This document shows positions 9,503 to 47,281 of a stretch of DNA of 64,000 nt, piece by piece (the stretch's first letter is position 1; each line of letters starts with the position of its first letter). The notes below the pieces were generated by a model. The model was not told the origin of the DNA, did not search any database, and saw only the letters and a list, made by a program, of their open reading frames with translations. The translations under genes were made by a program, and so were the position numbers. This DNA is from a virus, in the IMG/VR virus record IMGVR_UViG_3300017742_000001, positions 1 to 64,000 of that record; one strand, given 5' to 3'.

Positions 9503-9515
9503 GGAGATAAACAAA

Positions 9516-32832: not shown

Positions 32833-32833
32833 T

Positions 32834-33751
32834 ATGGCAATAAGTTACGAAGGATTAAAGAAATTAACAGGTGCTGGTATTGTTGACGGTACTATCGGTT
32901 CCGCTGACATTGGTTCAGGACAAGTTAACAGAGATAAAATTATTGATGGTTCAATTGATACAGATCAAATTGCAGACGGTGCAGTAACAGGTGGTAAAAT
33001 TGATCCAACAGCAGGATTAGTAGCAGCAAAATTTGCAGCAGGAGCAGTAGATTTAACAGGTGCAGCAGTAACAGGCTCACTAGCACCATCAAAAGGTGGT
33101 ACAGGTAAATCTAGTTTAGGTGCTGCAAACCAAGTTTTAAAAATTAATGATGCAGGTGATGGGTTTGATTACACTTATGGAGACTTAGTAAGTGTAAACT
33201 ATTATACAAGTAACACTACTTGGAACAGACCAGCAGGCGTTCAAAAAATTAGAGTACAGATCTGCGGAGCAGGCGGTGGCGGAACAGGTCACGGCGAATC
33301 CGGAGGCGCTGGCGGTTATGCAGAAGAAGTTATTGATGTAACAGGCATTTCATCAGTTTCCGTTACACTTAACGGTGGAGGTGGTGGTGTAAACTATCAC
33401 AACTCAGCGGGAAATGGAGGTTCAAGCAGTTTTGGTCCTTATCTATCAGCAAGTGGTGGAGAAGGTGCAAGACGTGTTGGTGGTCACTCAGGTGGACGAC
33501 CAGGCGTTGGATCAGGCGGAAATCTAAACCAGTATGGAGGCGGAGGACGCGGACATACACACCACGGTGGTGGTTTAGGAGGAAGTTCATATTTTGGTGG
33601 TTCTAGTATTGGTGTTCACGATAGTGGACCGCAACCATCACAACGTGAAGGACAAGCATCACCAGGTAGTGGTGGTGTTGGTGCACCTCGTGGTAGAAGA
33701 CGAGGCGGAACGGGCCGAACAGGCATCTGTATAGTATGGAACTACAAATAG
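32834..33751 (+). CDS. Fibre protein with Gly/His-rich tip domain (paralogue 3)
   Basis: Same architecture; SFGPYLSASGGEGARRVGGH identical in all three. Confidence 0.72.
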   Translation: MAISYEGLKKLTGAGIVDGTIGSADIGSGQVNRDKIIDGSIDTDQIADGAVTGGKIDPTAGLVAAKFAAGAVDLTGAAVTGSLAPSKGGTGKSSLGAANQVLKINDAGDGFDYTYGDLVSVNYYTSNTTWNRPAGVQKIRVQICGAGGGGTGHGESGGAGGYAEEVIDVTGISSVSVTLNGGGGGVNYHNSAGNGGSSSFGPYLSASGGEGARRVGGHSGGRPGVGSGGNLNQYGGGGRGHTHHGGGLGGSSYFGGSSIGVHDSGPQPSQREGQASPGSGGVGAPRGRRRGGTGRTGICIVWNYK

Positions 33752-33763
33752 GAGTAATAAATT

Positions 33764-34225
33764 ATGGCTAAAAGTGTATTAGTAGATTTCCAAGGTGGTA
33801 TTCAACATATCTGCGAGCCGGGCGACGAATTCGAAGTTTTCGAGGGCCCAGACGCAAAAGTTAGATGGACAACTTGTGCATCCGATGATGTTAATGATTC
33901 TTGGGTTTTACATAACGGTGTATGGGAACAAAATGTCCAAGCACCACCATCGTATACTGTTTTAAGAAGAAACGCATACGGTGAAATCGGTGAACAACTA
34001 GATATGTTGTTTAAAGATATGCAAAATGGAACAACAAATTGGCAAGATCATATTGCAGCAGTGAAAAACACTGTACCAGGACCAAGCAGTGACGAAGCAA
34101 GAGAAATGAGAGCTTCTCGTGTTGTTATTAATTGGGGTACAGAAGATTCACCTGCGTGGACAGATAATGTTAATAGAGAAGTACCAAATTTAGTTAAAAA
34201 CGTAGGAAAACTTACGTCAGACTAA
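33764..34225 (+). CDS. Putative tail fibre assembly/chaperone protein
   Basis: RRNAYGEIGEQLDML...WQDHIAAVK motif typical of genes following fibre genes. Confidence 0.55.
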   Translation: MAKSVLVDFQGGIQHICEPGDEFEVFEGPDAKVRWTTCASDDVNDSWVLHNGVWEQNVQAPPSYTVLRRNAYGEIGEQLDMLFKDMQNGTTNWQDHIAAVKNTVPGPSSDEAREMRASRVVINWGTEDSPAWTDNVNREVPNLVKNVGKLTSD

Positions 34226-34269
34226 ATCACTAATAAAGTACAGGGAACTGTATCTAAATAAGTAATAAT

Positions 34270-34869
34270 ATGCTATTAGATATGTTCCCTGTTCGTACCT
34301 ATACAACAGAAATAAAATTAGAAGAAAGTGATAAGTCTAAAATTAATGACTTTTTGCTTACTTTATTTGATTCTGTAAATGATTCTAATCACGCATTAGA
34401 AGCCGGCGGCAAAAGTACACATAGTGTAAACAAAGAATTACACAATGAAGAATTATTTTTACCTCTAGTAACAAAAATATACCAGAACCTTTTACATTAC
34501 TGGAATGAAGCAGGGTTTAGTCCTGGATGCCGTCCTAAGATAGTATCTATGTGGGCAAACATACATAACAAAGATGATTATACAGTAGAACATTCTCATA
34601 CCACACACGTACTAGCAGGATGTTACTATTTAAAATTTAATAGCGATGCAGGTAGTATTGTATTTGTTAATCCTAACGAATATGCTCAACATTATTATCC
34701 ATACTCAGAAGCAGGAAAAGTTAACGATATGCATTACACAGTACACGGTGCTGAAGATAAATTAATACTCTTTCCTGCACACGTTAAACACTACACAGAA
34801 GTAAATAACTCAAATGATGTTAGAATTAGCATTAACTTTAATGTAGATCAAGAGGCAATTGATGATTAA
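34270..34869 (+). CDS. 2OG-Fe(II) oxygenase-like protein (HxH type, TIGR02466-like)
   Basis: MWAN, EHSH, GCYY, LFPAHVKHY, RISINFN. Confidence 0.85.
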   Translation: MLLDMFPVRTYTTEIKLEESDKSKINDFLLTLFDSVNDSNHALEAGGKSTHSVNKELHNEELFLPLVTKIYQNLLHYWNEAGFSPGCRPKIVSMWANIHNKDDYTVEHSHTTHVLAGCYYLKFNSDAGSIVFVNPNEYAQHYYPYSEAGKVNDMHYTVHGAEDKLILFPAHVKHYTEVNNSNDVRISINFNVDQEAIDD

Positions 34870-36319
34870 TAATGTAACAATAGTAGGCGGCGGCACAGCA
34901 GGTTTAACTACTGCACTTATTCTACGTGCTGCATATCCTGATATGCAAATACAACTAATACGTTCCGATACTATCGATATTGTTGGAGTAGGAGAAGGCA
35001 CTACTGAGCATTGGAGAGATTTTTTAGAATTTGTAAAAATTAATCCTGCAGATTTTTTTATACACTGCGGCAGTACATTCAAACACGGAATTTATTTTAA
35101 GAATTGGAATGGTGACGGCAAAGATTATTTGCATAATGTTCCTTCATATCTTATTGAAGAAAGCAGAATAGGTCATCCTAATGTACTACACAAACTGATT
35201 GTAGAAAACGAAAAACAAATAGATATGTTTGATGAATTTATTGTTAATTCGCAACACTATCAACCTGTATTAGAGAGTACAAATCAATATCACTTTGACA
35301 CATTTAAATTAAATGAATTTTTAAATGACTTGTGTAGCAAACGTAGAATCAACATTATTGTTGATACAATTAAATCTGTTGAAGCACTTGGCACTATACA
35401 AAAACTACACGGCGAAAAAAACATTTACGAAAGTGACTTTTATATTGATGCAACAGGATTTGCTAAAGTAGTACACAGTAAAGTAGGTAGTGATTGGAAA
35501 GATTGTACAGAGTATTTGCCAATGAATAGTGCAATTACATTTCCTACTAAACTAGATGATAAGTTTCCTGCTTATACTGCTGCTACAGCATTAAGTTCTG
35601 GGTGGGTGTGGCAAATACCTACACAAGAAAGATACGGCAACGGTTATGTATATTGCGATGATTTTATTACTGAAGATCAAGCAATAGAAGAAGTAACAAA
35701 ATACTACGGACACGATCTAGATATACGTAAAAAGTTTAAATTTGGTGCAGGATATTTACGTAATGTGTGGAACAAAAACTGTCTAGCAGTTGGGCTTAGT
35801 GCAAGTTTTATTGAGCCTTTAGAAGCCACTAACATTGGAACAGCCATACAACAAGCATTAGCCTTTGTTAATCATCTAGGGCTTTACGACCCAAATAGAG
35901 ATGTTGTACAAGATAGTTATAACAAAAAATTTGAAAAAGTTTTTCAGAATACTGTAGACTTTGTACAGTTGCACTACTTTACTAAAAGAAAAGATTCTGA
36001 GTTTTGGAAAAACAGCCACAACATTAAGAAGACAGATTTTAATGAAGCAACATTAGAACTGTACAAAAAGCAAATACCGTTATGGACTGACTTTGCACAC
36101 CCATATGTATTGTTTAATAACTTTAATTGGATAATGGTATTAACAGGATTGGGTATAATTGATAGACAATCATATTTAGATCAATGGGAACAACTGCCAT
36201 ATGAAACAAAGACAGAAGCAGATATTAAACTAGATGTATATTATAGTAGAGAGGCTGCTGTATTAGGACATTGGGAAGCAATTAACTACATTAAGGAGAT
36301 ACATAATGGCGCAAATTAA
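34862..36319 (+). CDS. Flavin-dependent (tryptophan halogenase family) halogenase 1
   Basis: GGGTAG, VGEGT, TFKHGI (catalytic Lys position), YHFD, GWVWQIP, FIEPLEAT. Confidence 0.92.
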   Translation: MINNVTIVGGGTAGLTTALILRAAYPDMQIQLIRSDTIDIVGVGEGTTEHWRDFLEFVKINPADFFIHCGSTFKHGIYFKNWNGDGKDYLHNVPSYLIEESRIGHPNVLHKLIVENEKQIDMFDEFIVNSQHYQPVLESTNQYHFDTFKLNEFLNDLCSKRRINIIVDTIKSVEALGTIQKLHGEKNIYESDFYIDATGFAKVVHSKVGSDWKDCTEYLPMNSAITFPTKLDDKFPAYTAATALSSGWVWQIPTQERYGNGYVYCDDFITEDQAIEEVTKYYGHDLDIRKKFKFGAGYLRNVWNKNCLAVGLSASFIEPLEATNIGTAIQQALAFVNHLGLYDPNRDVVQDSYNKKFEKVFQNTVDFVQLHYFTKRKDSEFWKNSHNIKKTDFNEATLELYKKQIPLWTDFAHPYVLFNNFNWIMVLTGLGIIDRQSYLDQWEQLPYETKTEADIKLDVYYSREAAVLGHWEAINYIKEIHNGAN

Positions 36320-37895
36320 AAAGATTTGTATCGTTGGCGGAGGTAGTGCAGGCTGGATGACAGCAGCAATGCTTTCAAAAAAATTAAAAAATATAGAACT
36401 TAGTCTAGTTGAATCACCTAAAGTCTCAACTGTAGGTGTAGGAGAATCTACACTAGGGCATATTAATAGATATTTGGATATGCTTGAATTGAAAGATAGT
36501 GACTGGATGGCAGAGTGTAATGCAACTTACAAGACTAGTATTAGATTCACAGACTTTAAAGAAAAAGACGGAACTAGTTTTCAATATCCTTTTGGAACAA
36601 TGCCTTTTGATCACACATCAAACGGAATAATGGATTACTTTTGGCATCAAGCATATACTGAAAATGAATATGATCATAGTGAGTTTGCAAGTTGGGCGTT
36701 GAATCAAACTATTATGACTGATCAAAATAAGTTGTATGACAACGCAGATGAAAGACAACAAATTAGAGGATTTGATTTCCACCTTAATACAGCATACCAT
36801 ATGGATGCAGAAAAATTTGGTCAATATTTAAAAAATAATATTGCTCTTCCTAATGGTACAAAACATTTCTGGGATACTGTTAAAGATGTAAAACAAGATG
36901 AAAATGGAAATATTATTGAACTAATAGGAGAAGAACAATCTCACTTTGCAGATTTATATATTGACTGTACTGGATTTACAAAATTATTAATTGAAAAAAT
37001 AATGAAAACTAAATTTGTAAGTTTCGGTGATGTATTAATGAATGATCGTGCAATGGCAACTCGTATTCCTTACAACGATAAAGAAAATGAAATGCACAGT
37101 TTTACAGATTGTACTGCTATTGAAAACGGTTGGGTATGGGATATTCCTTTATATCATAGACGTGGTACAGGATATGTACACAGTAGCAAATTTGTTGATT
37201 GGGATCAAGCAGAAGTAGAATTTAAAAACTATCTAAGCAAAAGATTAAAACCAGAACAAATAGAAAAATTAGAATTTAACAGAATTAATATCAGACACGG
37301 TGTACAAGACACTCCTTGGAAAGGAAACGTATGTGCTATAGGATTAGCATTAGGGTTTGTTGAGCCTTTAGAAAGCACAGGACTGCTTACAACGCACGAA
37401 AACATTATACGCTTAGTAGGAACACTCACACGTAGAAACGGACTTGTAAATAATATGGATGTTGAAGGATGGAATTCAGCAGCAAGGTTTGAACTTGATA
37501 ACTTCAAACAATTTGTAAGTATGCACTATGGTTTAAGTGGCCGTAGAGATACTCCTTATTGGAAGCACGTAACTGATACTGTAAATTACATTCCTAATCC
37601 TGACGAAGCGTGGGATAATTGTGTACAAGATTACAACTATAGAATGAACACACGTCTACATCTAGACGGAGATACTAATGACGGAAAATATTTTATCCTA
37701 GCAGGTATGGGATACAATCCTATTAGTAAAGCACACGCAGATATGGAAGCATTTAGATATCCAGGCTTGCCAAGTATTTGGAAAGCAGCAATGAATAAAC
37801 ACGAAAAACATAAACAAGACGTTTTAGAATTATGTAAAACATTACCAACGCATTATCAATATTTGAAAGGTAAGTTCTATGACGGAAAAGAATAG
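36306..37895 (+). CDS. Flavin-dependent halogenase 2
   Basis: GGGSAGW, VGEST, ATYKTSI, AYHMDA, DCTGF, GWVWDIP, FVEPLESTG. Confidence 0.93.
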   Translation: MAQIKKICIVGGGSAGWMTAAMLSKKLKNIELSLVESPKVSTVGVGESTLGHINRYLDMLELKDSDWMAECNATYKTSIRFTDFKEKDGTSFQYPFGTMPFDHTSNGIMDYFWHQAYTENEYDHSEFASWALNQTIMTDQNKLYDNADERQQIRGFDFHLNTAYHMDAEKFGQYLKNNIALPNGTKHFWDTVKDVKQDENGNIIELIGEEQSHFADLYIDCTGFTKLLIEKIMKTKFVSFGDVLMNDRAMATRIPYNDKENEMHSFTDCTAIENGWVWDIPLYHRRGTGYVHSSKFVDWDQAEVEFKNYLSKRLKPEQIEKLEFNRINIRHGVQDTPWKGNVCAIGLALGFVEPLESTGLLTTHENIIRLVGTLTRRNGLVNNMDVEGWNSAARFELDNFKQFVSMHYGLSGRRDTPYWKHVTDTVNYIPNPDEAWDNCVQDYNYRMNTRLHLDGDTNDGKYFILAGMGYNPISKAHADMEAFRYPGLPSIWKAAMNKHEKHKQDVLELCKTLPTHYQYLKGKFYDGKE

Positions 37896-39381
37896 TGTTA
37901 GTGCAGTAATACTAGGCGGCGGCACAGCAGGCTGGCTAGCAGCACTATTTGTAAAACACTATTGGCCTAGTATTGATTTGACTGTTGTTGAAGATCCAAC
38001 TAAGCCACCTATCATTGCAGGAGAGTCAGGAGGATTTGCACTTTCTCAAATGTATGATACAATAGGTATTCCGTTTAATGATTGGGCAAAAGCAGTAGGT
38101 GCAACTCCGAAACTAGGCGGCAAGTTTGTTGGCTGGAATGGAAAAGACTCTGTATTTTGGCACAGTCTTATTACACATCATTACTATGATGCGTGGGGCA
38201 AACGTTTTCCTAGTTTAGAAGAACGTTATTACTTTTTACGTATGCTTGTAGGTATGGATGTAGAAATTGCTGACGTTGTTCCTACAGGACATTTATTAAA
38301 AAATAATAAAGTACCATTCGATGACTACGGATCAATTGTAGAAAAAATATTTCCTATGTGGCACTTTGATAGTCGTGCTAATGCTGCATATCTAAAAGAG
38401 AAAGGATTGCAACGTGGTATAACTCTTGTTGAAGGAACTTACATTGCAAGTGAAAAAGATAATCTAGGTAAAATTAAAAGTATTAAATTATCAAATGATA
38501 TTACATTACCTGCAACTTGGTTTTTTGATTGCAGTGGATTTGCTAGATTACTTCTTGAAAAAGAAATGAACGCTACGTCAGTAGATCAGTCTGCATATTT
38601 TCCTGCTTGTGCAGTATTGCCTTGGTGGGACAAACCTTGCTATAATACAGCAACACTTGCAACTACAATGGATGCAGGTTGGACTTGGAAAATAGGATTA
38701 AAAGAAAGAACTGGACAGGGTTATTTGTATGATCCTAATCATCTTACAAAAGATCAAGCACTAGACGAAATTAGAAACAAGTTTGGTAAGCATATAGAAC
38801 CAGTAGCAAATTTACAGTTTACGCCAAGCATAATGAAACAGAGCCAATTAAAAAATGTAATTGGAGTAGGTTTAAGTACAGGTTTTATGGAACCGCTTGA
38901 AGCAAACGGAACAGGAATTATTGTTGATCAATTATTAACTTTATTACAAACTTGGAATCCAACGCAGTATAACAAGTTAAATGAAGATCAATTTAACAGT
39001 AGTGTATACCATCAATATTTAGGAATACGTGACTTTTTATCCTTACATTACAGAGGTAAAGGTAACGGTTCTCAATTTTGGAAAGAACAATCTAATCCAA
39101 ATAATGTACCAGATACACTACAAGAGAGACTTTTAGAATTTGAAAGGTTTTTTGCAACAGGACATATGGACTATACAAAATATCTTAATGGATTTAGTTT
39201 TGAAAGTTGGATAACAGTGATACAGGGAATGAGTCTTTGTAATAGTAAAGCCATATCTGTTGGTGATAAGCACCAACTGATCGATAATTACTATAAAGAG
39301 ACGGTAGAGCCCTTTGATCACATTTATAGAAGGTGTATAAAAATAGAAAAATGGATAGAAAAAACTTCGAATATAAAGTAA
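37879..39381 (+). CDS. Flavin-dependent halogenase 3
   Basis: GGGTAGW, ATPKLG, WHFD, DCSGF, GWTWKIG, FMEPLEANG. Confidence 0.9.
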   Translation: MTEKNSVSAVILGGGTAGWLAALFVKHYWPSIDLTVVEDPTKPPIIAGESGGFALSQMYDTIGIPFNDWAKAVGATPKLGGKFVGWNGKDSVFWHSLITHHYYDAWGKRFPSLEERYYFLRMLVGMDVEIADVVPTGHLLKNNKVPFDDYGSIVEKIFPMWHFDSRANAAYLKEKGLQRGITLVEGTYIASEKDNLGKIKSIKLSNDITLPATWFFDCSGFARLLLEKEMNATSVDQSAYFPACAVLPWWDKPCYNTATLATTMDAGWTWKIGLKERTGQGYLYDPNHLTKDQALDEIRNKFGKHIEPVANLQFTPSIMKQSQLKNVIGVGLSTGFMEPLEANGTGIIVDQLLTLLQTWNPTQYNKLNEDQFNSSVYHQYLGIRDFLSLHYRGKGNGSQFWKEQSNPNNVPDTLQERLLEFERFFATGHMDYTKYLNGFSFESWITVIQGMSLCNSKAISVGDKHQLIDNYYKETVEPFDHIYRRCIKIEKWIEKTSNIK

Positions 39382-40004
39382 AAGAATATTCTATGTCTAA
39401 TTTTCCTGATAGGAAAATTTTTGTTTACGATGACGTTTTGCCGTATTCAGTAAGGACAGGTATTTACGAAATGTGCAGCAAGTCGTTGTACAAATTAAAT
39501 GGTACAGATAACGGTGTTTTAGAAAACTCACAACATATTTCAGTTGTATCGACCTGGCAAGTAGATGATTTCAAGGCTACTCAGTTGCTAGAAAATTTAC
39601 CCCAAGAAGTTATAGAACGACATAATATGTATTACAAGTTTCATCATAACACTATGATTAACTTATGTACTCCACACGATAGATTTCATACGCATATTGA
39701 CAACGACTCCAATGGATGGACAATGGTTTATTATGCAAACTTGCAATGGAACATTGAATGGGGCGGAGATACTTGCTTCTTAAACGAAGAAGGTACTGAA
39801 TTTGAACACGTATGTTCATATAGACCCGGTCGTTTAGTTCTATTCCATCCGCAGATTCCGCATATGATTCGACCTCCAACACAACTTGCTTCTGAACACG
39901 GCCAATTCTTTAGATTTTCATTAGCAACAAAATTTGTTCCTGCGTTAGGTGAAGCAAGAGTGTTAGCAGATGGAATGAAGGACGCTAGTCTAGGCGGAGG
40001 ATAA
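39333..40004 (+). CDS. 2OG-Fe(II) oxygenase (prolyl-hydroxylase-like, HxD)
   Basis: HTHID, YYANLQWNIEWGGDT, PGRLVLF, IPH, RFSLA; true start may be 39351 or 39393. Confidence 0.85.
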   Translation: MYKNRKMDRKNFEYKVKEYSMSNFPDRKIFVYDDVLPYSVRTGIYEMCSKSLYKLNGTDNGVLENSQHISVVSTWQVDDFKATQLLENLPQEVIERHNMYYKFHHNTMINLCTPHDRFHTHIDNDSNGWTMVYYANLQWNIEWGGDTCFLNEEGTEFEHVCSYRPGRLVLFHPQIPHMIRPPTQLASEHGQFFRFSLATKFVPALGEARVLADGMKDASLGGG

Positions 40005-40005
40005 T

Positions 40006-41163
40006 ATGAAAGTTGCAGTTATAGGTATCGGCACTGCCGGACTTCAAACACTAGCATACTTTATGAACACACTAGATGATGACATTGAAGTATACAGCAT
40101 ACACGATCCTGAACAAAAAATTCTAGGTATTGGAGAAAGTACAACAACATTTCTACCTCACATATTAGCACAGGCTTGTGATTTTAGAATGTTAGATGAC
40201 GGTCCTGCCTTAGACGCTACAACTAAACACGGTGTAAAATATAAAAACTGGAGAGACAACGATTTCCACAATCAGTTTATACCTCCTTATCACGCTATAC
40301 ACTTTAACAACTTTAAATTAAGCGAACTAGTATTAGGACGATTGAGAAACAAAAAAGGTTTCTTTGAAATACACGGTGCAATTGAATCTATTAAACAAAC
40401 AGATACACACGTAAATTTACTTATTGATGGTACTGAACATAAGTTTGATTATATTATTGACTGTATGGGATATCCAGATGATTATTCTGATTATGAATTA
40501 AAAGATGATCTTCCTGTTAACCACGCTATAGTAAATGCTATAGACAAACCAGGTGATTGGAATTATACATATCATCAGGCAACTAGAAACGGTTGGATGT
40601 TTGGTATACCTTTAGCAACAAGACAAGGTTGGGGATATCTATTTAATGATAAAATTACCAGCGTCGAAGAAGCAAAAGAAGATATGCAAACACTGTTTGA
40701 TGATCCTATCCAAGTAAGAGATTTTAGTTGGAAAAACTACTATAAGAAAAATACTATAGATGGCAGAATTATTAGCAATGGTAATAGAGCATTATTTTTT
40801 GAACCATTAGAAGCATTAAGTGGTTCGTATTATGAAGCAGTAGCAATTGAGGCTGCAAATGTAATTATGGGCGATAGTACAGCAGACGTAGCAAATGCTT
40901 CGTTGCGTCATACTGCTGAAGTATATTGTGCATTTATTTACTTTGTATATCACGGCGGAAGTACATTTGATAGCGAGTTCTGGAAAATAACAGTTGACAA
41001 AACAACAAAAGCATTGCATAATAGTGATGTGTTTCAGAATGTAAAAAGTATGATGCAAGTATTAAAAACAAACGGTGTTGATGACCCAAGAATTATTTTT
41101 AAACCATTAAGTATAGAACTTTGGTCATTAGTTGATAAAAAGATGGGATATAATTACTTCTAA
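40006..41163 (+). CDS. Short flavin-dependent halogenase-like protein 4
   Basis: GIGTAG, IGEST, ATTKHG, HFNN, GWMFGIP, FFEPLEA; only 385 aa. Confidence 0.85.
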   Translation: MKVAVIGIGTAGLQTLAYFMNTLDDDIEVYSIHDPEQKILGIGESTTTFLPHILAQACDFRMLDDGPALDATTKHGVKYKNWRDNDFHNQFIPPYHAIHFNNFKLSELVLGRLRNKKGFFEIHGAIESIKQTDTHVNLLIDGTEHKFDYIIDCMGYPDDYSDYELKDDLPVNHAIVNAIDKPGDWNYTYHQATRNGWMFGIPLATRQGWGYLFNDKITSVEEAKEDMQTLFDDPIQVRDFSWKNYYKKNTIDGRIISNGNRALFFEPLEALSGSYYEAVAIEAANVIMGDSTADVANASLRHTAEVYCAFIYFVYHGGSTFDSEFWKITVDKTTKALHNSDVFQNVKSMMQVLKTNGVDDPRIIFKPLSIELWSLVDKKMGYNYF

Positions 41164-41759
41164 TGGAATATCAAATTGTAGATAATGTAATACCAAAAGT
41201 ATATCAAGACGATATTGAAGATTTACTTTTAGGTAATAATAGTTTTCCTTGGTACTATGTTGCTGACGTAACACTTACTGCTGACAAAATTAAAAGATAC
41301 AACACTAGAGCAATTTGTCCTGCATTTAATCACGTGTTTTATGAAGATGTAAATGACAATAACGATGCTTGGTGGCCTTTTATTAAGCCGTTAGTTTATA
41401 TGGCGTGTGATAAAATTAATGTTGATGTGGAGCACGTTTATCAAGCACGTTCTTTTTTACAATTACCTATTAGTAAAAATGTGCCAAGTAATCATCCACA
41501 TATCGACTTGCAGTTTGATCATTTAGTATGCTTGTATTATGTAGTTGATAATGAAGCACCAACTACATTATATAAACAAACACGGCACGATACACAATCT
41601 GCAAATATGGAAGATGTAGAATGGGAACCATTAGTTACTTGTCAACCTAAAAAAGGAAGAGCATTATTCTTTAACGGCAAATACTATCATTCAAGTTCTA
41701 GTCCAAATCAATCATCTAGAGCAATTATTAATTTTGATGTAATAGGAAATACACAATGA
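41163..41759 (+). CDS. 2OG-Fe(II) oxygenase (HxD)
   Basis: FPWYY, HPHID, LYYV, PKKGR..F.G..YHSS, RAIINF. Confidence 0.85.
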   Translation: MEYQIVDNVIPKVYQDDIEDLLLGNNSFPWYYVADVTLTADKIKRYNTRAICPAFNHVFYEDVNDNNDAWWPFIKPLVYMACDKINVDVEHVYQARSFLQLPISKNVPSNHPHIDLQFDHLVCLYYVVDNEAPTTLYKQTRHDTQSANMEDVEWEPLVTCQPKKGRALFFNGKYYHSSSSPNQSSRAIINFDVIGNTQ

Positions 41760-42337
41760 TAGAAAATTATTTTGGTATTCCTGTTAAGTTAGTTGATACT
41801 GATAACCAAGATGTTATCAATGAGGCTGTACAAGTTGCAGAAACACAAAGAAGTAATACAACTAATCCTTGGTCAAGCGATATACAAAGCACATTTAAGT
41901 TTGATGAATATATAAATGTATTAAAAGATCAATGTCCGCTTTTAAGCAAACACATTTATAAACATATACATCAGTATCTAGCAGAACTAGCAGTTGATCC
42001 TCCATACACACTTGTAAACTTAGACGAATCGTGGTATAATTATAGCCAGCCGGGTATGTGGCAAGAGTTTCATATGCATCCAGAAAGCGATATAAGTGGA
42101 ATATTTTATGTAACTGCTCCTAAAGATAGTGGCAACATAATGTTTAATCCGCCAGCAAGTGCATACAACTTTCATAAACTAACACACAGAGCAAAAAATA
42201 TGCAGCCTAATATTTGGTTTGAACCTATTGTAGGACGATTGTTGTTATGGCCTTCATATTTAGAACATATGGTTGTAAAAAACAAAAGCAATGAAGAAAG
42301 AATTAGCATTGCATTTAATGTAAAGTTGATAAACTAA
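41756..42337 (+). CDS. 2OG-Fe(II) oxygenase-like protein (HxH type)
   Basis: SWYN, EFHMH, SGIFY, WPSYLEH, RISIAFN. Confidence 0.85.
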   Translation: MIENYFGIPVKLVDTDNQDVINEAVQVAETQRSNTTNPWSSDIQSTFKFDEYINVLKDQCPLLSKHIYKHIHQYLAELAVDPPYTLVNLDESWYNYSQPGMWQEFHMHPESDISGIFYVTAPKDSGNIMFNPPASAYNFHKLTHRAKNMQPNIWFEPIVGRLLLWPSYLEHMVVKNKSNEERISIAFNVKLIN

Positions 42338-42978
42338 TGACAGATCATATTGAAGTAGTACCTATTTTTCCAACACCTGTATACTTTGCTATTTGCGAAG
42401 ATGAAATACAGCAATGCATTAACTATATGGAAAACGCTCCAATTGATGTTGAAAAGGATCAACAAACAATTAAAGAGTATGGTACAATAAGTCAAGACAA
42501 TTATATTCTAAATCGTGAAGAAATGACTCCGTTAAGAAACTGGATTATGAAGCAGGTTAACAACTATGCTGAAAATGTACTTGCTTGGAACTTTAATAAA
42601 ATTGACTTAACTATGAGTTGGGTATCGATAAAAGAAAAAGGTCAGCGACACAAGTATCATATTCATCCTAACAGTTTAATTTCCGGAGTGTTTTACTGGG
42701 AAGAAAGCGAGATAGAACCTATCAGTTTTTTACGTCCTAGAAAATTTAACAACTTTGAAATAGATCGTAATGAAGATATTGATGCACCGTATGCATTTGA
42801 TACGCATTCATTCACTCCAAGAAAACATACACTTGTACTATTTCCTAGTGAGCTTCAACATAGTGTGGGAAAAATAAAGCAAGACCTTCCGAGAAAGAGT
42901 CTTGCTTTTAATACTTTTATCTTTGAAAAGATTGGAAGACCTGACAGCCTTACTGAATTAGATCTTAGTAAAAACTAG
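42337..42978 (+). CDS. 2OG-Fe(II) oxygenase-like protein (HxH type)
   Basis: FPTPVY, YHIHPNS.ISGVFY, FPSELQH, RKSLAFN. Confidence 0.85.
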   Translation: MTDHIEVVPIFPTPVYFAICEDEIQQCINYMENAPIDVEKDQQTIKEYGTISQDNYILNREEMTPLRNWIMKQVNNYAENVLAWNFNKIDLTMSWVSIKEKGQRHKYHIHPNSLISGVFYWEESEIEPISFLRPRKFNNFEIDRNEDIDAPYAFDTHSFTPRKHTLVLFPSELQHSVGKIKQDLPRKSLAFNTFIFEKIGRPDSLTELDLSKN

Positions 42979-43154
42979 TAGTTATTAGCACTATCTAATT
43001 CGTCTTCAGTAAGAATATCGCCGACCATTACTGGAGCGCCGCCATCCTTGACTAATGCTATCTGTCTATCTTCAGTGTTGTACAAAAACATTGCATAATC
43101 ATATGCTTTATAATATTTGTCGAAAGTTTTTCCTTCAACTGTAAATGTTGCCAT
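42975..43154 (-). CDS. 59-aa hypothetical protein (not in ORF track)
   Basis: AAGGAG RBS then MATFTVEGKTFDKYYKAYDYAMFLYNTEDRQIALVKDGGAPVMVGDILTEDELDSANNY*; fills the gap between convergent genes. Confidence 0.7.
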   Translation of the reverse strand: MATFTVEGKTFDKYYKAYDYAMFLYNTEDRQIALVKDGGAPVMVGDILTEDELDSANNY

Positions 43155-43188
43155 AGTAACAAGTCTCCTTAATACGTCTGTTATATGT

Positions 43189-43803
43189 TTATTTATTCAA
43201 TTTAGCCCAATTAAAGTGGTTTTCTTTTCCTAGCGTGTTGGGCATAATATTTACCGCTACTGTATAACGTTCAGAAACAGCGTTAAAATTAGCAGCACTA
43301 CGGTGGTTTATGTAGGATGGAAATAGAACTACATTATCTTGCTCTGGTCTAATTGCTATTTCAGGGCAATTGTAGTTTGTAAACTTGTCTACTTCGGTTT
43401 GTAAACTAAGTTGCAGTGGATTCTTAGTAGTTTGGAATAGTGTAGGGCCTGTTCCTTCGTCTGCTTTAAGATAGTAGACTGCTGAAATAAGTGAATTAGA
43501 ATGCCAGTGCCAGTCAATACTTCCGCCATCGGGCATCTTGTTAAGCCACGCTTGTGTGATATACATACCGTCGTGCTTATATCCTAGTTCTGTCCAATAG
43601 TGTTCAGCCTTTCTTACAATCCAATTTAGTAGTGGTTGCCATTCGGCAACTTCTTGTAGATTAGTTTGACTTTGATCAAAATCGCCTAAGCCGTTGTTGT
43701 CAGTTTTCCACTCTATACTGTTCATTAAACTATCGATATCAAGTTTAATGTCAGTGTTAGTTGCTAAGCCAATGCCTTCTGGAAATATTGACCTAATTTT
43801 CAT
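43189..43803 (-). CDS. 2OG-Fe(II) oxygenase-like protein (HxH type)
   Basis: AWLN, WHWHSNS.ISAVYY, FPSYINH, RYTVAVN. Confidence 0.85.
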   Translation of the reverse strand: MKIRSIFPEGIGLATNTDIKLDIDSLMNSIEWKTDNNGLGDFDQSQTNLQEVAEWQPLLNWIVRKAEHYWTELGYKHDGMYITQAWLNKMPDGGSIDWHWHSNSLISAVYYLKADEGTGPTLFQTTKNPLQLSLQTEVDKFTNYNCPEIAIRPEQDNVVLFPSYINHRSAANFNAVSERYTVAVNIMPNTLGKENHFNWAKLNK

Positions 43804-44057
43804 TAGTCAGCAACGGCGATATCAGTAATTGCATCCCAACCAACAATATAACGTTGATGAGTTTCAAGATCAATAACTTCAGCAAGTCTCTTTTCTTTAT
43901 CTCTCTGTAAGATCTGACCTTTACCTGAAATCAATGCTTTTGGAATCACTTCATCTGATTGTGATAACAATGGCATTGTATTAGGATCAATCTCTGCTTC
44001 ATACATACAGAAGTAATTTACTCCGGGTTCCAATGTTTCTACTGTAATAATACTCAT
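43803..44057 (-). CDS. Hypothetical protein
   Basis: 84 aa, translationally coupled to neighbours. Confidence 0.65.
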   Translation of the reverse strand: MSIITVETLEPGVNYFCMYEAEIDPNTMPLLSQSDEVIPKALISGKGQILQRDKEKRLAEVIDLETHQRYIVGWDAITDIAVAD

Positions 44058-44786
44058 TTACTTTTTCTCCTTTTTAACTATTCGTTGGTGCTCTTTGTAG
44101 CCATTTTTAAATTTGCCGGCCCACCACAAATAACTTTGGTTAGTTATATTATATAGCCGGTCTTTGTACTCAGACACTTTATGTTTGATTACATTTCTTT
44201 GCACAGGAATAAACATACAAAGAGGTGTTCCCCTTTCAATAATATATTCTCCATAGTCAAAGAATGCCATCTGCTGAGAACATTCGTGATGTATGTCAGA
44301 CCAAAACGAGCCTGGTAATACTTCGAATCTTTTATCGTAATGAAACAACATTGGTAGTTGTAACACTGACCATCCTTTAGGAGTTTTTAGTCTCCACGGA
44401 CTTATTGCTTTCAATACCATACTATACTTGTCAGGATCAGGCAAATGATTTGCAAATTGTAAATCGCCGTGATTAGTAAATTCAAATCTTTCATCTGCTG
44501 ATTCTACACTGTATGTTCTATCTTTATTAATAGTAATTTTAAAATCTGTCCACATTCTTAATACATATGCTTGCTTCCAAAATTCAGCATATGCAGGACA
44601 TTGTTTTGCAGTTTCTACTCTACCATTTGCCCCAAAATTAGTATATACATCTCTTGCAGTCGTTGGCATTTCTTTAAACCAATCCGGTATACATTGTGTA
44701 GCAGGAACCGGCGGAGCAGTATGTTCTAGTCCTTTCTCTATAGACCAGAATTCAATAGTTGGTTGAGTTTTTTGAAACCACTTCAT
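44058..44786 (-). CDS. Hypothetical beta-rich protein (possible dUTPase-like fold), paralogue of 44783
   Basis: PDWFK, TAKQCP, SPWRLKTPKGWS, IERGTPL. Confidence 0.7.
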   Translation of the reverse strand: MKWFQKTQPTIEFWSIEKGLEHTAPPVPATQCIPDWFKEMPTTARDVYTNFGANGRVETAKQCPAYAEFWKQAYVLRMWTDFKITINKDRTYSVESADERFEFTNHGDLQFANHLPDPDKYSMVLKAISPWRLKTPKGWSVLQLPMLFHYDKRFEVLPGSFWSDIHHECSQQMAFFDYGEYIIERGTPLCMFIPVQRNVIKHKVSEYKDRLYNITNQSYLWWAGKFKNGYKEHQRIVKKEKK

Positions 44787-45511
44787 TTATTTTCTTGCTT
44801 TTTAATGATAGTTTGATGTTCTTTATATCCGCCTGCAAATTTACCAGAAAACCAATAATATTGTTTTTCTTCTAGACGTTTTAATTCATCGTCCATTTCT
44901 CTAACTTCAAGAGTTATTTTTTCTCTTTTTATTGGAACGTACATTGCTAAAGGCGTGCCTCGTGGAATCATATATTCACCATATTCCTTAAATGCCATTT
45001 GCGGGTTTACTTCGTAATGTATATCAGCACTCATTACACCAGGAAGTACTTCAAATCTTTTATCAAAATGATAGTGTAAAGGCAATTGCATTAAATCATA
45101 ACCTTTAGGTGTTACCATTCTCCAAGGACTGTTTGCTTTTAATACCATTGCATATTCACGAGTGTCTAAATGATCTAAAAACTGATTATCTAAATGATTT
45201 GTAAAACTAAAAAGTTTTTCAGGAGTTTTAACTTCCCAAGTAGTATCTTCATTTATTTTAATCCACAGATCGCACCATAGATATAAAACAACGCCTGACT
45301 TATAATAATCTACAAACGCAGGACACTTTTTTGCTGTACCTGGGTGTCCGCTCCATTGTTCCATAATTTCTTTAGGCATTTTTTTAAACCAATCAGGTAT
45401 TGCTGCTGTTGCAAGTTTTGGAGGGTAGATTGTTTCTAGCCCTCGTACAGTTGTATAGCAGGTTACTAATGGTTGTTTCTTTTTAAATTTGTTTTTAAGC
45501 CAGTTAATCAT
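44783..45511 (-). CDS. Hypothetical beta-rich protein, paralogue of 44058
   Basis: PDWFK, TAKKCP, SPWRMVTPKGY, IPRGTPL. Confidence 0.7.
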   Translation of the reverse strand: MINWLKNKFKKKQPLVTCYTTVRGLETIYPPKLATAAIPDWFKKMPKEIMEQWSGHPGTAKKCPAFVDYYKSGVVLYLWCDLWIKINEDTTWEVKTPEKLFSFTNHLDNQFLDHLDTREYAMVLKANSPWRMVTPKGYDLMQLPLHYHFDKRFEVLPGVMSADIHYEVNPQMAFKEYGEYMIPRGTPLAMYVPIKREKITLEVREMDDELKRLEEKQYYWFSGKFAGGYKEHQTIIKKQENK

Positions 45512-46100
45512 ATTGTTCCGTTGTAAAATTAAAAGTTAGCACACATCTTGAATAACCACTAGTAGGCTTTTTACTTGAATGATAATGTTTACCATTAAAA
45601 ATAAACATCTTTCCTTTTTTAGGTGTTGATGTAGTTAAAACTGTATAGTTGTCACTTGGTTGTGTTTCGTTATAAACACTAGTGTCGCCATCGCTATCAT
45701 TTACATAATACAATCCAGTCCAGTGAGGACAGAAAAAATCTAAATGAGGCTCATCGCCGCCATCTACAGGCTCAGCATTATCGACCATACTATCACTAGC
45801 ATTGCTTGGTACAAGCAAACCACAACGCAGTCTCAGCAACTTTCCTAAATCCTTGCCCAATACATCTCCCATCATATACCAAATAGGTAGTAACAACTGT
45901 AAATGATTACTTGCAGTTGATCCTTTTGGTAAATCAGGACCGTCATTTAGTGCAAGATGTGTGAATCCTAAACTGTATGTATTAGTATTATTATAGTGTT
46001 CGTGATTAGCAAACCACGGAAACTCCGTACTATACATTAGGCTTTCTACTTCATCTTGATAGGCCTTAGGAAGTGCGTTTTCGACTGTAATATGTTCCAT
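45504..46100 (-). CDS. 2OG-Fe(II) oxygenase (HxD)
   Basis: FPWF, PHLD, LYYVNDSDGDT, PKKGK..F.G..YHSS; start reassigned to ATG 46100, 5 nt after TAAATA. Confidence 0.85.
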   Translation of the reverse strand: MEHITVENALPKAYQDEVESLMYSTEFPWFANHEHYNNTNTYSLGFTHLALNDGPDLPKGSTASNHLQLLLPIWYMMGDVLGKDLGKLLRLRCGLLVPSNASDSMVDNAEPVDGGDEPHLDFFCPHWTGLYYVNDSDGDTSVYNETQPSDNYTVLTTSTPKKGKMFIFNGKHYHSSKKPTSGYSRCVLTFNFTTEQYD

Positions 46101-46105
46101 AAAAC

Positions 46106-46157
46106 TATTTATGGTGCTTTTTCGCATAGACACGTTATCTTGGCAGTCGGATAAATA
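46106..46157. promoter_or_regulatory. Divergent pair of TAAATA late promoters
   Basis: Minus-strand TAAATA 46111-46106 and plus-strand TAAATA 46152-46157. Confidence 0.6.
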
Positions 46158-46186
46158 CTATACAACAAGACGGATCAGAGAGAAAT

Positions 46187-47281
46187 ATGGCAAGATTACC
46201 AATTATTAATAACCTTAGAGTAGTGCCAAGAGATACCGATTTTCTTGATAGAAAGTTGGGTTTACGCGGTGAAATTTTCTATGATAACGACAAAAAGACT
46301 TTACGCCTGTATGATGCACAAACAGTAGGCGGAATGGAACTTGTAAAAGAAGATTTATCAAACGTAACTAATGCTATATTTGCTGCAAAAGCATTAACAG
46401 CAGGTGTAGGTGGCGGCGGAAGCGGCAGTATCGAAGTAAGTGATAGTGCGCCCACTGAGCCAGAAGAAGGAACAATTTGGTTTGATAGTTCAACAGCAAG
46501 ATTATATGTATATGTTAATGACGGAAATAGCGCACAATGGATTCAACCAGCAGTACCAGCATCACAAAGTGGTGGCGGTGGCGTATCTAGTTGGGGAGAC
46601 TTACAAGATAAGCCTACAACATTAGGCGGGTATGGCATTACTGATGCTGTTCCTAAAACAGGTGCAACTATAACAGGTGCAATTGATGCTCCTACAGTAG
46701 CCGCACACGGATTAAGATTTTTATATCCAACAATAAGCGACTTCCCAGATGCAACTACGTATCACGGAGCAGTTGCACACAGTCACGCAGATGGCGCATT
46801 ATATTTTGCACACGCTGGCGGATGGGTCGAACTTGCAAACAAAACAATATTAACAACATACGCAACTACTACAGCACTTAACACTGCTACATCAAACGCT
46901 TCCAATTGGGACTCGGCATTTGGTTGGGGTGATCATTCTGTTGCTGGATACTTAACAACAGAATCTGATACACTTGATACAATTACTGGTAGAGGCGCAA
47001 CGACAACAAACACAATTACCGTCGGCGGATTGAATACATCTACGTTTAGTGACACTGGTATTGGAGCAACTGCAATTAATAGTTCGTCAGCAGTAACAAT
47101 TACTACTGTAGACGGCGCAAGATTTGCAGGTGGTCCTGTAAGACTGCCATCGATGGACGATACTGCACGTAATGCTTTAACTGCTGTGAACGGTGATATA
47201 ATTTATAATACAACTTCCAATAAGATAGAGGGTTATCAAAATGGTGGTTGGATTGAATTAGACACTGGCGCGGCAGCATAA
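46187..47281 (+). CDS. Virion structural (fibre-like) protein
   Basis: GEIFYD...LRLYD, P.EG.IWFDS, KPTTLGGYGITD, GDIIYNTT..KIEGY motifs. Confidence 0.7.
   Translation: MARLPIINNLRVVPRDTDFLDRKLGLRGEIFYDNDKKTLRLYDAQTVGGMELVKEDLSNVTNAIFAAKALTAGVGGGGSGSIEVSDSAPTEPEEGTIWFDSSTARLYVYVNDGNSAQWIQPAVPASQSGGGGVSSWGDLQDKPTTLGGYGITDAVPKTGATITGAIDAPTVAAHGLRFLYPTISDFPDATTYHGAVAHSHADGALYFAHAGGWVELANKTILTTYATTTALNTATSNASNWDSAFGWGDHSVAGYLTTESDTLDTITGRGATTTNTITVGGLNTSTFSDTGIGATAINSSSAVTITTVDGARFAGGPVRLPSMDDTARNALTAVNGDIIYNTTSNKIEGYQNGGWIELDTGAAA

What the first reader, a model, noticed from the sequence alone, without database searches (positions are those of the whole stretch)
34255..46111. Late-expressed tailoring cassette of four halogenases and seven 2OG-Fe(II) oxygenases inside the fibre genes: candidate virion-modification system
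Seen: two translationally coupled arms (34270-42978 on +, 46100-42975 on -) converge. Each is headed by the TAAATA late motif, and the cassette is flanked on both sides by fibre-like genes. All four halogenases keep GxGxxG, the TxK lysine and FxEPLE. Four oxygenases are HxH type and three are HxD type. No scaffold-building enzyme (NRPS/PKS) or flavin reductase is present in the window. Established: single viral halogenases (VirX1) and multiple 2OG oxygenases occur in marine T4-like phages, with unknown natural substrates. Inference: timing and position point to post-translational halogenation/hydroxylation of virion fibres (Trp/Tyr/His/Pro) rather than host metabolism, which would be an undescribed virion-tailoring pathway.
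Basis: partly seen in the sequence, partly recalled or inferred. Interest (0 to 1): 0.85.

Follow-up and report, generated by a model that had tools for sequence, protein, structure and literature searches.

The report
Halogenase-oxygenase island beside phage fibre tips
An uncultured marine jumbo phage carries four halogenase and seven iron-oxygenase genes right behind its tail-fibre tip genes. This is an enlarged copy of a gene cluster described in cyanophage Syn9 in 2010, and its target, possibly the fibre tips themselves, is still unknown.

Summary
At 34270-46100 there are four flavin-dependent halogenases, seven Fe(II)/2-oxoglutarate oxygenases (four HxH, three HxD), two dUTPase-fold proteins and two small conserved ORFs. 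They lie in two tightly packed convergent arms between fibre-type genes.

This kind of island is already known. Iyer et al. 2010 (PMC2938197) described the Syn9 cluster of 10 dioxygenases, 2 halogenases and a dUTPase-fold Cys protein. The same gene order is annotated in S-RIM44 and Sf-FP1. This scan has also reported similar islands in at least 76 other genomes.

What this analysis adds:
- The host phage is a ~350-kb jumbo myovirus. Its portal is 49% identical to PA5oct and only 31-34% to Syn9 and S-RIM44, so it is not a T4-like cyanophage.
- The VirX1-type halogenase stays next to a trio of glycine-rich fibre-tip proteins and a gp40-like protein, despite deep divergence and rearrangements.
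- The minus arm starts with the same TAAATA-N5-ATG arrangement as structural genes.

The fibre-tailoring reading is plausible but unproven. Lone halogenases occur elsewhere in phage genomes, VirX1 accepts small molecules in vitro, and late timing is only inferred. Verdict: a new member of a known kind, of moderate interest.

The parts
31007..33751 (+). Three tandem glycine-rich fibre-tip paralogues (GLY1-3; 303, 309 and 305 aa), the candidate substrates
   Evidence: Pfam Gly_rich_2. They match the C-terminal ends of tail-fibre PHROGs 863, 21412 and 6202. They are homologous to Syn9 gp38 and S-RIM44 097-099. Clade-specific Tyr, His and Glu residues are conserved.
33764..34225 (+). gp40-like 153-aa protein; its C-terminal helical domain is shared with small proteins that follow fibre tips in other phages
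   Evidence: 44% identical to Syn9 gp40. phrog_1787. Among cultured phages the hits that include the N-terminal domain are adjacent to a listed halogenase match, except the weak S-T4 hit. Short forms follow GLY genes in halogenase-less phages. The fold model is of low confidence.
34254..34260 (+). CTAAATA, a weak late-type motif 9 nt before the first gene of the plus arm
   Evidence: One mismatch to the cyanophage NATAAATA consensus (PMC2984593).
34270..34869 (+). 2OG-Fe(II) oxygenase, PF13759 type, HxH
   Evidence: Pfam 61.5 bits; phrog_81; HSH motif.
34862..36319 (+). Flavin-dependent halogenase 1 (485 aa from the ATG)
   Evidence: Pfam 313 bits. All motifs present, including GWVWQIP. Falls in a clade together with halogenases of loci L016 and L055.
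36306..37895 (+). Flavin-dependent halogenase 2, VirX1 type (529 aa)
   Evidence: PDB 6qgm VirX1, E 2e-137 over the full length. Sits in a 100/100 clade with Syn9 gp42.
37879..39381 (+). Flavin-dependent halogenase 3 (500 aa), with WxWxIP degenerate
   Evidence: Pfam 262 bits; GWTWKIG; orthologues in L016 and L055.
39333..40004 (+). 2OG-Fe(II) oxygenase, prolyl-hydroxylase-like PF13640, HxD; start codon uncertain
   Evidence: Pfam 30.4 bits; HID motif; phrog_274.
40006..41163 (+). Short flavin-dependent halogenase 4 (385 aa), lacking the C-terminal module
   Evidence: Pfam 91.5 bits in two stretches. Motifs GIGTAG, TTK and FFEPLE. Its length is conserved in L013, L015 and L016.
41163..41759 (+). 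2OG-Fe(II) oxygenase of the phrog_274 family (mislabelled 'endonuclease V' in databases), HxD
   Evidence: phrog_274 E 2e-30; invariant H113, D115, H176 and R186.
41756..42337 (+). 2OG-Fe(II) oxygenase, PF13759, HxH
   Evidence: Pfam 89.5 bits; HMH motif.
42337..42978 (+). 2OG-Fe(II) oxygenase, PF13759, HxH; last gene of the plus arm
   Evidence: Pfam 67.3 bits; HIH motif.
42975..43154 (-). Conserved 59-aa protein with its own ATAAATA (43190-43196) and an AAGGAG ribosome-binding site; last gene of the minus arm
   Evidence: 46-52% identical in L015 and L016. No family match.
43189..43803 (-). 2OG-Fe(II) oxygenase, PF13759, HxH
   Evidence: Pfam 64 bits; HWH motif.
43803..44057 (-). Conserved 84-aa protein of unknown function
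   Evidence: 44-49% identical in L015 and L016. No Pfam or PHROG match.
44058..45511 (-). Two 242-aa paralogues with a dUTPase-like fold and an invariant Cys (Syn9 gp43 family, phrog_7084)
   Evidence: phrog_7084 E 1e-42 and 3e-47. Homologous to Syn9 gp43 and S-RIM44 103. AlphaFold pLDDT 85. The listed Foldseek PDB hits are all dUTPases, with the best E 3e-4. Invariant C62, D80, G184 and P186.
45504..46100 (-). 2OG-Fe(II) oxygenase, phrog_274 family, HxD; first gene of the minus arm (true start ATG 46100)
   Evidence: phrog_274 E 4e-32. Aligns with its paralogue from MEH.... Invariant HxD...H...R.
46098..46112 (-). ATAAATA-N5-ATG late-type start of the minus arm
   Evidence: TAAATA-N5-ATG occurs 9 times against 1.9 expected, and also heads structural genes at 55044 and 61345.
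46151..47281 (+). ATAAATA promoter-like motif and a 364-aa fibre-like gene diverging from the minus arm
   Evidence: phrog_9729 tail fibre, E 2e-32.

Best explanation
This is an enlarged Syn9-type dioxygenase-halogenase island attached to the fibre-tip module of an uncultured ~350-kb marine jumbo myovirus. Eleven apparently active tailoring enzymes and two dUTPase-fold proteins are probably made together with the structural proteins. The enzymes are four flavin-dependent halogenases of four old clades and seven Fe/2OG oxygenases of three families.

The phage encodes no scaffold-building enzyme and no flavin reductase. The enzymes must therefore use host FADH2, 2-oxoglutarate, Fe(II), O2 and seawater halide, and must act on something already present in the infected cell. 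I think the most likely substrates are ribosomally made phage proteins. The first candidates are the three glycine-rich fibre-tip proteins encoded just upstream. The gp40-like protein and the small co-encoded ORFs are second candidates. These would be hydroxylated, and halogenated on Tyr, His or Trp, before or during fibre assembly.

Shown: gene content, catalytic motifs, tight packing, synteny and its conservation. Inferred: late timing, protein substrate and chemistry.
For: Catalytic residues are intact in all 11 enzymes.

The whole architecture is conserved in phages whose halogenase 2 is only 56-60% identical (L015, L016).

The order GLYx3, gp40, VirX1-type halogenase holds in all GLY-anchored close relatives with enough downstream sequence. 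It is also present in Syn9, S-RIM44 and Sf-FP1. It survives rearrangements: the halogenase sits between GLY and gp40 in L022, L023, L025, L029 and L080, and the island is inverted in L040, L054, L059 and L062.

The module is shared by lineages whose portals are only 31-34% identical, while GLY, gp40 and halogenase 2 are about 44% identical.

GLY proteins match the C-terminal tips of fibre families.

Halogenase-linked GLY tips conserve Y186, Y201, H216, H239 and H260, which halogenase-less GLY proteins lack.

The minus arm uses TAAATA-N5-ATG like structural genes. Syn9 has ATAAATA 27 nt before gp40.

No flavin reductase or adenylation enzyme was found in the 92-kb record, in complete Syn9, in a 99%-complete relative or in a 71%-complete jumbo relative. 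NRPS condensation, PKS ketosynthase and Fre-type reductase domains were searched only in the 92-kb record and are absent there.

VirX1 has a large, open active site and accepts bulky substrates (PMC8407142). A 2OG oxygenase was detected in a cyanophage virion proteome (PMC12801897).
Against: No modified virion protein has ever been reported.

VirX1 works on free small aromatics in vitro (PMC8407142).

Halogenases of the same family sit elsewhere in other phages: in the replication module of S-B64, between the terminase genes of HTVC008M, and in 10 of 31 well-flanked loci with neither oxygenases nor fibre-tip genes nearby.

The stretch just before the neck gene gp13 holds unrelated accessory genes in S-SSM7 and oxygenase genes in HTVC008M. 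It may therefore be a general insertion spot, and the linkage could be inherited position rather than shared function.

The GLY-gp40 pair exists without halogenases in distant phages.

The GLY residue pattern is confounded by clade and also fits a metal site.

The plus arm has only a weak motif at odd spacing.
Confidence: 0.4

Rival explanations
1. Small-molecule tailoring, as proposed by Iyer et al. 2010. The island converts a free host metabolite (Trp, an indole, another amino acid or a pigment precursor) into a halogenated, poly-hydroxylated compound during infection. Such a compound could act as an antibiotic, a grazing deterrent or a signal.
For: This reading was proposed for the Syn9 cluster by analogy with the cephamycin and bleomycin pathways, where several distinct dioxygenases act in series (PMC2938197). 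VirX1 turns over small aromatics with a Km of about 28 uM (PMC8407142). Lone halogenases lie away from fibre genes. The enzymes come from several old, unrelated clades, as in assembled pathways. Bacterial homologues sit with TonB receptors and NRPS genes.
Against: No scaffold or precursor enzyme was found even in complete genomes. Expression alongside structural genes is late for a metabolite that would have to benefit the infection. This reading does not explain why the VirX1-type halogenase keeps its place beside GLY and gp40 through rearrangements and across deep lineages. No halogenated metabolite of infected picocyanobacteria has been reported in the papers read.
Confidence: 0.3
2. Tailoring of host rather than phage macromolecules. 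The enzymes would modify host envelope or ribosomal proteins, or cell-surface receptors. The effect could be to block superinfection, help lysis or remodel translation.
For: Relatives of these oxygenase families hydroxylate ribosomal and other proteins; Syn9 gp49 is a MINA/No66-type enzyme. The island needs only host-supplied substrates.
Against: No signal peptides or targeting domains were looked for or seen. The JmjC member is absent here. This reading gives no reason for the fibre-tip linkage.
Confidence: 0.12
3. Metabolic or nucleic-acid roles suggested in the older cyanophage literature. The oxygenases would drain 2-oxoglutarate to manipulate NtcA and nitrogen status, or would repair or modify DNA. 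On this view the halogenases are unrelated passengers.
For: Sullivan et al. 2010 and Weigele et al. 2007, as quoted in PMC3037559. The dUTPase-like fold hints at nucleotide binding. The families are often annotated as 'DNA endonuclease V'.
Against: The endonuclease V label is an annotation error for a 2OG oxygenase family that keeps HxD...H...R. No AlkB or TET/JBP family hit was found. This reading does not explain four halogenases, or the conserved pairing of halogenase with oxygenase and with the dUTPase-fold protein.
Confidence: 0.06
4. Hitch-hiking accessory island with no common pathway. Genes accumulated in a permissive insertion spot next to the fibre genes and travel with them when host-range cassettes are exchanged.
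For: The stretch before gp13 also holds carbamoyltransferase and heptose genes in S-SSM7. Gene number and order of the oxygenases vary widely among loci. The island's GC content is 33-35%, against 41-46% in the flanking fibre genes.
Against: The full 16-gene architecture is kept at 56-60% protein identity. Genes overlap as in an operon. The same families recur together in different orders and even in bacteria.
Confidence: 0.12

Closest known systems
Syn9 gp40-gp54 dioxygenase-halogenase neighbourhood (Iyer, Abhiman, de Souza and Aravind 2010, NAR, PMC2938197); also annotated in S-RIM44 and Sf-FP1
   Same: A tandem array of distantly related 2OG oxygenases, Trp-halogenase-type enzymes and a dUTPase-fold protein with a conserved Cys. 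It directly follows glycine-rich fibre-region genes and a gp40-like gene.
   Different: This island has four halogenases instead of one or two, and two dUTPase-fold paralogues. It has no JmjC/MINA member. It forms two convergent arms instead of one co-directional run. It lies in a PA5oct-related jumbo phage rather than a Kyanoviridae cyanophage.
VirX1, the flavin-dependent halogenase of cyanophage Syn10 (PDB 6qgm; Gkotsi et al. 2019, as reviewed in PMC8407142)
   Same: Halogenase 2 aligns over its full length at E 2e-137, keeps K79 and the Glu of EPLES, and sits in the same tree clade as Syn9 gp42.
   Different: Identity is only about 44%. Halide preference and substrate are untested. The other three halogenases belong to other clades.
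Peptide and protein tailoring systems: RiPP Trp halogenases such as MibH (recalled, not tested here), collagen prolyl and lysyl hydroxylases, and the bacterial operons pairing beta-hydroxylase-type 2OG oxygenases with tail-collar or glycine-rich proteins that Iyer et al. predicted
   Same: Tailoring enzymes are encoded next to a ribosomally made, glycine-rich candidate substrate, and no scaffold synthetase is present.
   Different: No leader peptide or recognition element has been identified. The candidate substrate is a folded virion fibre tip. No experimental precedent for a halogenated virion protein was found in the papers searched.

Membership tests
Flavin-dependent (Trp-type) halogenase, PF04820 | Profile match above the curated cut-off | tested here: met
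   313, 355, 262 and 91.5 bits against a cut-off of 21.
Flavin-dependent (Trp-type) halogenase, PF04820 | GxGxxG flavin-binding motif, the catalytic Lys (PrnA K79 equivalent) and the Glu of the xEPLE motif | tested here: met
   Present and aligned in all four. Aligned to VirX1 for halogenase 2. Invariant K76, E353 and E356 across 23 VirX1-type sequences.
Flavin-dependent (Trp-type) halogenase, PF04820 | WxWxIP motif, thought to block mono-oxygenase chemistry | tested here: inconclusive
   Intact in halogenases 1 and 2. Degenerate in 3 (GWTWKIG) and 4 (GWMFGIP).
Flavin-dependent (Trp-type) halogenase, PF04820 | Halogenating activity with reduced flavin | not testable with these tools
   No flavin reductase gene in the record or in relatives. 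A host enzyme would be needed.
Fe(II)/2-oxoglutarate oxygenase superfamily | HxD/E...H metal triad plus a basic residue for the 2OG carboxylate | tested here: met
   HxD...H...R is invariant in the phrog_274 family. An HxD motif (HID) is present in the 39333 gene; its distal His and basic residue were not examined. PF13759 members have HxH...H...R instead, as does the whole family, including PDB 3bvc and 2rg4.
Fe(II)/2-oxoglutarate oxygenase superfamily | Double-stranded beta-helix fold | not tested
   No structure was predicted for the oxygenases. Membership rests on profile matches.
Fe/2OG halogenases (SyrB2 type) | HxA/G in place of HxD/E | tested here: not met
   All seven have HxD or HxH.
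Syn9-type dioxygenase-halogenase neighbourhood (Iyer et al. 2010) | Several dioxygenases of different families in tandem with one or more Trp-type halogenases | tested here: met
   Three oxygenase families and four halogenase clades.
Syn9-type dioxygenase-halogenase neighbourhood (Iyer et al. 2010) | dUTPase-fold protein with a conserved cysteine | tested here: met
   Homologous to Syn9 gp43. dUTPase fold. Invariant C62.
Syn9-type dioxygenase-halogenase neighbourhood (Iyer et al. 2010) | JmjC/MINA-type dioxygenase (Syn9 gp49) | tested here: not met
   No window protein matches gp49. This member is optional in other loci.
Syn9-type dioxygenase-halogenase neighbourhood (Iyer et al. 2010) | Position directly after the glycine-rich fibre-region genes and the gp40 homologue | tested here: met
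RiPP-like peptide tailoring cluster | Short precursor with a leader and core, and a recognition element in the enzymes | tested here: inconclusive
   Two small conserved ORFs (59 and 84 aa) exist. No leader/core pattern or known family was found.

The most novel reading that the evidence does not exclude
Virion fibre tips of this phage and of Syn9-type cyanophages are covalently halogenated (I, Br or Cl on Tyr, His or Trp) and hydroxylated by the phage's own late enzymes. That would make the glycine-rich tip proteins the long-sought natural substrate of VirX1-type viral halogenases, and the first chemically tailored receptor-binding surface on a virus particle.
Probability: 0.3. Interest if true: 0.85.

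Novelty: new member of a known kind. Interest (0 to 1): 0.45.

Why it matters
The natural substrate of viral flavin-dependent halogenases such as VirX1, and of the many 2OG oxygenases in marine phage genomes, has been unknown since these genes were first reported in cyanophage genomes.

This locus does not solve that, but it sharpens the question. The VirX1-type enzyme travels with a defined trio of fibre-tip proteins and a gp40-like protein across very different phage lineages. No lineage supplies a scaffold enzyme.

This gives a cheap, decisive experiment on phages that are already in culture. If the tips are modified, it would be a new way for phages to tune adsorption, stability or metal binding, and a new class of protein halogenation. 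If they are not, the small-molecule model gains ground and infected-cell metabolomics becomes the route.

Tried and rejected
- Megablast of the island against cultured phages found no match.
- Complex prediction with halogenase 2 and the gp40-like protein gave no verdict (score 0.03). This is not evidence either way.
- The gp40-like fold model has pTM 0.44, and Foldseek against the PDB gave nothing below E 1.
- A GLY protein against PDB sequences gave nothing. A GLY tblastn against phages was crippled by low-complexity masking.
- The phrog_274 profile against the PDB gave no real hit.
- The sigma-70 promoter and terminator scan of the island was not above shuffles, so it gives no sign of early promoters or of a terminator between the arms.
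- Doron et al. 2016 (Syn9 transcriptome) and Gkotsi et al. 2019 (VirX1) are not held. Published timing of Syn9 gp40-gp54 therefore could not be read.
- Metatranscriptome contigs of relatives (90-99% identical) cover parts of the fibre genes and of the island. They are contigs from RNA libraries that may contain DNA, so they show neither transcription for certain nor timing. The uncovered parts mean nothing.
- I considered SyrB2-type Fe/2OG halogenases for the oxygenases and rejected the idea (HxD or HxH, not HxA/G).
- I considered that the 242-aa proteins were the JmjC member (Syn9 gp49) and rejected it by BLAST. They belong to the gp43 family.

Full report
WHAT IS THERE

ORF listing and profile searches show sixteen tightly packed genes between 34270 and 46100.

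The plus arm (34270-42978) holds, in order:
- a PF13759 oxygenase;
- three full-length Trp-type flavin-dependent halogenases (34862, 36306, 37879);
- a prolyl-hydroxylase-like PF13640 oxygenase (39333);
- a short 385-aa halogenase (40006);
- a phrog_274 oxygenase (41163);
- two more PF13759 oxygenases (41756, 42337).

The minus arm (46100-42975) holds:
- a phrog_274 oxygenase;
- two 242-aa paralogues of phrog_7084;
- an 84-aa ORF;
- a PF13759 oxygenase;
- after a 34-nt gap, a 59-aa ORF.

Neighbouring genes overlap by 1-17 nt or are 0-1 nt apart. The exceptions are the 39333 gene, whose start is uncertain, and the 34-nt gap before the 59-aa ORF. The two arms end on overlapping stop codons (42975-42978).

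All four halogenases have GxGxxG, the aligned lysine and xEPLE. Four oxygenases are HxH and three are HxD. Two qualifications apply. WxWxIP is degenerate in halogenases 3 and 4. HxH is simply the family signature of PF13759: H106, H108, H171 and R182 are invariant in 19 sequences, and the nearest solved structures, 3bvc and 2rg4, are uncharacterised.

THE UNNAMED PARTS

The two 242-aa proteins are homologues of Syn9 gp43. They fold with pLDDT 85 into a beta barrel, and the listed PDB matches are all dUTPases. They keep an invariant Cys. [quoted passage not shown] The 84-aa and 59-aa ORFs are real genes, 44-52% identical in two related phages, but match no family.

PROMOTERS AND TIMING

The hexamer TAAATA is too common to mean much: it occurs 60 times in the window. 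The heptamer ATAAATA is the core of the cyanophage late consensus NATAAATA (PMC2984593). It is depleted, at 12 against 26 expected, and lies almost only just upstream of gene starts.

The minus arm has ATAAATA 5 nt before ATG 46100. The arrangement TAAATA-N5-ATG occurs 9 times against 1.9 expected; none of 100 shuffles reached 9. It also heads the gp13-like gene (ATG 55044) and a tail-tube paralogue (ATG 61345). The minus arm therefore shares its start architecture with structural genes. A second ATAAATA and an AAGGAG ribosome-binding site precede the 59-aa ORF.

The plus arm has only CTAAATA, at N9 spacing. With no terminator-like site after the gp40-like gene, it may simply be read through from the fibre-tip genes. 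In Syn9, ATAAATA lies 27 nt before gp40. Late expression is thus a reasonable inference, not a result. The Syn9 transcriptome paper could not be read.

SURROUNDINGS AND THE PHAGE

Upstream lie two giant fibre proteins (1845 and 2516 aa), two small fibre fragments, and three glycine-rich paralogues. The paralogues match the C-terminal tips of tail-fibre families. A 153-aa protein, 44% identical to Syn9 gp40, follows them. Downstream lie a fibre-like 364-aa gene, a 1062-aa protein and a baseplate/fibre-connector-like protein, then tail sheath stabiliser, neck, sheath and tube genes.

The portal protein is 49-50% identical to those of the jumbo phages PA5oct and Phosso, but only 31-34% to Syn9 and S-RIM44. 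The record is estimated to be 26% complete at 92 kb. This is therefore a ~350-kb jumbo myovirus, not a T4-like cyanophage. Near-identical DNA is present in marine metagenomes of at least seven studies from 2018 to 2024.

IS IT KNOWN?

Yes, as a kind. Iyer, Abhiman, de Souza and Aravind (2010, PMC2938197) described the Syn9 cluster of ten tandem dioxygenases, two Trp halogenases and the dUTPase-fold protein. They called it unprecedented and proposed synthesis of halogenated secondary metabolites.

The annotated genomes of Syn9, S-RIM44 and Sf-FP1 show the same order: giant structural protein, glycine-rich paralogues (three in S-RIM44 and Sf-FP1; gp38 and gp39 in Syn9), a gp40-like gene, one or two halogenases, a gp43-like gene, and a run of oxygenases. 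In S-RIM44 and Sf-FP1 the run ends at the neck gene. This scan has also reported similar islands in at least 76 other genomes. The present copy is larger than Syn9's in halogenases, lacks the JmjC member, and is split into two convergent arms.

SYNTENY SURVEYS

Two surveys were run, one anchored on the halogenase and one on the glycine-rich (GLY) protein.

Halogenase-anchored survey (80 IMG/VR loci):
- The full 16-gene architecture recurs in L013 (98% identical), L015 and L016/L030 (halogenase 2 at 56-60% identity).
- Of 31 loci with at least 5 kb on both sides, 18 carry GLY and/or gp40 genes, 19 carry oxygenases, and 10 carry neither.
- Clusters with two or more halogenases are linked to GLY or gp40 in 11 of 13 cases.
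- The link survives rearrangement. The halogenase lies between GLY and gp40 in five loci. The island is inverted relative to the fibre genes in another group. Minimal forms keep only GLY, gp40, one unknown ~410-450-aa gene, sometimes one oxygenase, and the halogenase.

GLY-anchored survey (55 loci):
- Every close relative with enough downstream sequence shows GLYx3, gp40, halogenase, gp43-like gene and oxygenases.
- Distant GLY proteins in other phage types are followed by a short gp40-like protein (C-terminal domain only) and no halogenase.

GLY plus gp40 is therefore an older fibre pair, and the enzymes were added to it. Among cultured phages, the gp40 hits that include the N-terminal domain lie adjacent to a listed halogenase match, apart from a weak hit in S-T4.

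A tree of the halogenases shows four old clades. Halogenases 1 and 3 have orthologues in L016 and in a related jumbo phage (L055, whose portal is 68% identical). Halogenase 2 falls in the VirX1/Syn9 gp42 clade (100/100), apart from the L055-type clade. So the VirX1-type gene has either been exchanged with cyanophages or retained differentially.

EVIDENCE AGAINST A FIBRE-SPECIFIC ROLE

S-B64 has its halogenase in the replication module. HTVC008M has one between the terminase genes, paired with an oxygenase. In S-SSM7 the island region also holds carbamoyltransferases and heptose-pathway genes. The stretch before gp13 therefore looks like a general spot for accessory genes. VirX1 halogenates small and bulky aromatics in vitro with I > Br > Cl, and its natural substrate is unknown (PMC8407142).

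WHAT COULD THE SUBSTRATE BE?

No flavin reductase or adenylation enzyme was found in the 92-kb record, in complete Syn9, in a 99%-complete relative or in a 71%-complete jumbo relative. NRPS condensation, PKS ketosynthase and Fre-type reductase domains were searched only in the 92-kb record and are also absent. The substrate must therefore be something the infected cell already contains: a ribosomal protein or peptide, or a free metabolite.

In 108 non-redundant halogenase-linked GLY tips, E153, E162, Y186, Y201, H216, H239 and H260 (GLY1 numbering) are 85-99% conserved. They are essentially absent from 14 halogenase-less GLY proteins. This fits target residues, but it equally fits a metal site, and it is confounded by clade. 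A complex prediction for halogenase 2 with the gp40-like protein gave no verdict.

VERDICT

Position, probable timing, the absence of scaffold enzymes and a robust link to fibre-tip genes make phage-protein tailoring my preferred explanation, at about 0.4. The published small-molecule model remains a strong rival at about 0.3, and nothing here shows a modified virion.

The island is a new, enlarged member of a known and recurrent kind. Its value lies in pointing to a simple mass-spectrometry experiment on cultured carriers.

Noticed in passing
window 4162-5868 and 9468-10688: The portal is 49-50% identical to those of the jumbo phages PA5oct and Phosso, but only 31-34% to Syn9 and S-RIM44. The major capsid protein is 83% identical to that of a 270-kb contig (L055). 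The window belongs to a ~350-kb marine jumbo myovirus, not a Kyanoviridae cyanophage.
   Followed up: partly
window 4004, 5872, 10762, 55033, 61334, 63818 (+); 18151, 46111, 57151 (-): TAAATA-N5-ATG occurs 9 times against 1.9 expected. This fixed spacing would give leaderless or near-leaderless late transcripts, and it heads several structural genes.
   Followed up: partly
window 31007-33751: The three fibre-tip paralogues differ in their N-terminal repeat shafts but keep a nearly identical Gly-rich C-terminal domain. Within it, Glu, Tyr and His positions are conserved specifically in the halogenase-linked clade. This could be a metal site or a set of modification sites.
   Followed up: partly
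window 47281-50469 and 50491-51357: A 1062-aa protein matches a phage 'protease' family (phrog_3677) and, at its end, a baseplate/fibre-connector family (phrog_677). The next gene (288 aa) also matches phrog_677.
   Followed up: no
window 56199-56822: A deoxynucleoside monophosphate kinase gene sits among the neck, sheath and tube genes.
   Followed up: no
window 30084 and 46563: One metatranscriptome contig joins these two places, skipping 16.5 kb (the whole fibre-tip and enzyme block), with 29 other letters in between. Only 21 letters lie on the shorter side, so it may be a repeat artefact or a relative that lacks the block.
   Followed up: no
L018-L021, L031, L032, L035, L072 (IMG/VR loci): Minimal versions of the module carry an unidentified ~410-450-aa gene between the gp40-like gene and the halogenase. 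This gene is absent from the window.
   Followed up: no
L010 (S-SSM7) and L011 (HTVC008M): A phrog_274-type or PhyH-type oxygenase directly precedes and overlaps the halogenase in both phages. This mirrors the adjacent pair at 40006-41759 in the window, where the order is reversed: the halogenase comes first.
   Followed up: partly
window 34000-46000: The island has 33-35% GC, against 41-46% in the flanking fibre genes and about 38% for the window as a whole.
   Followed up: no
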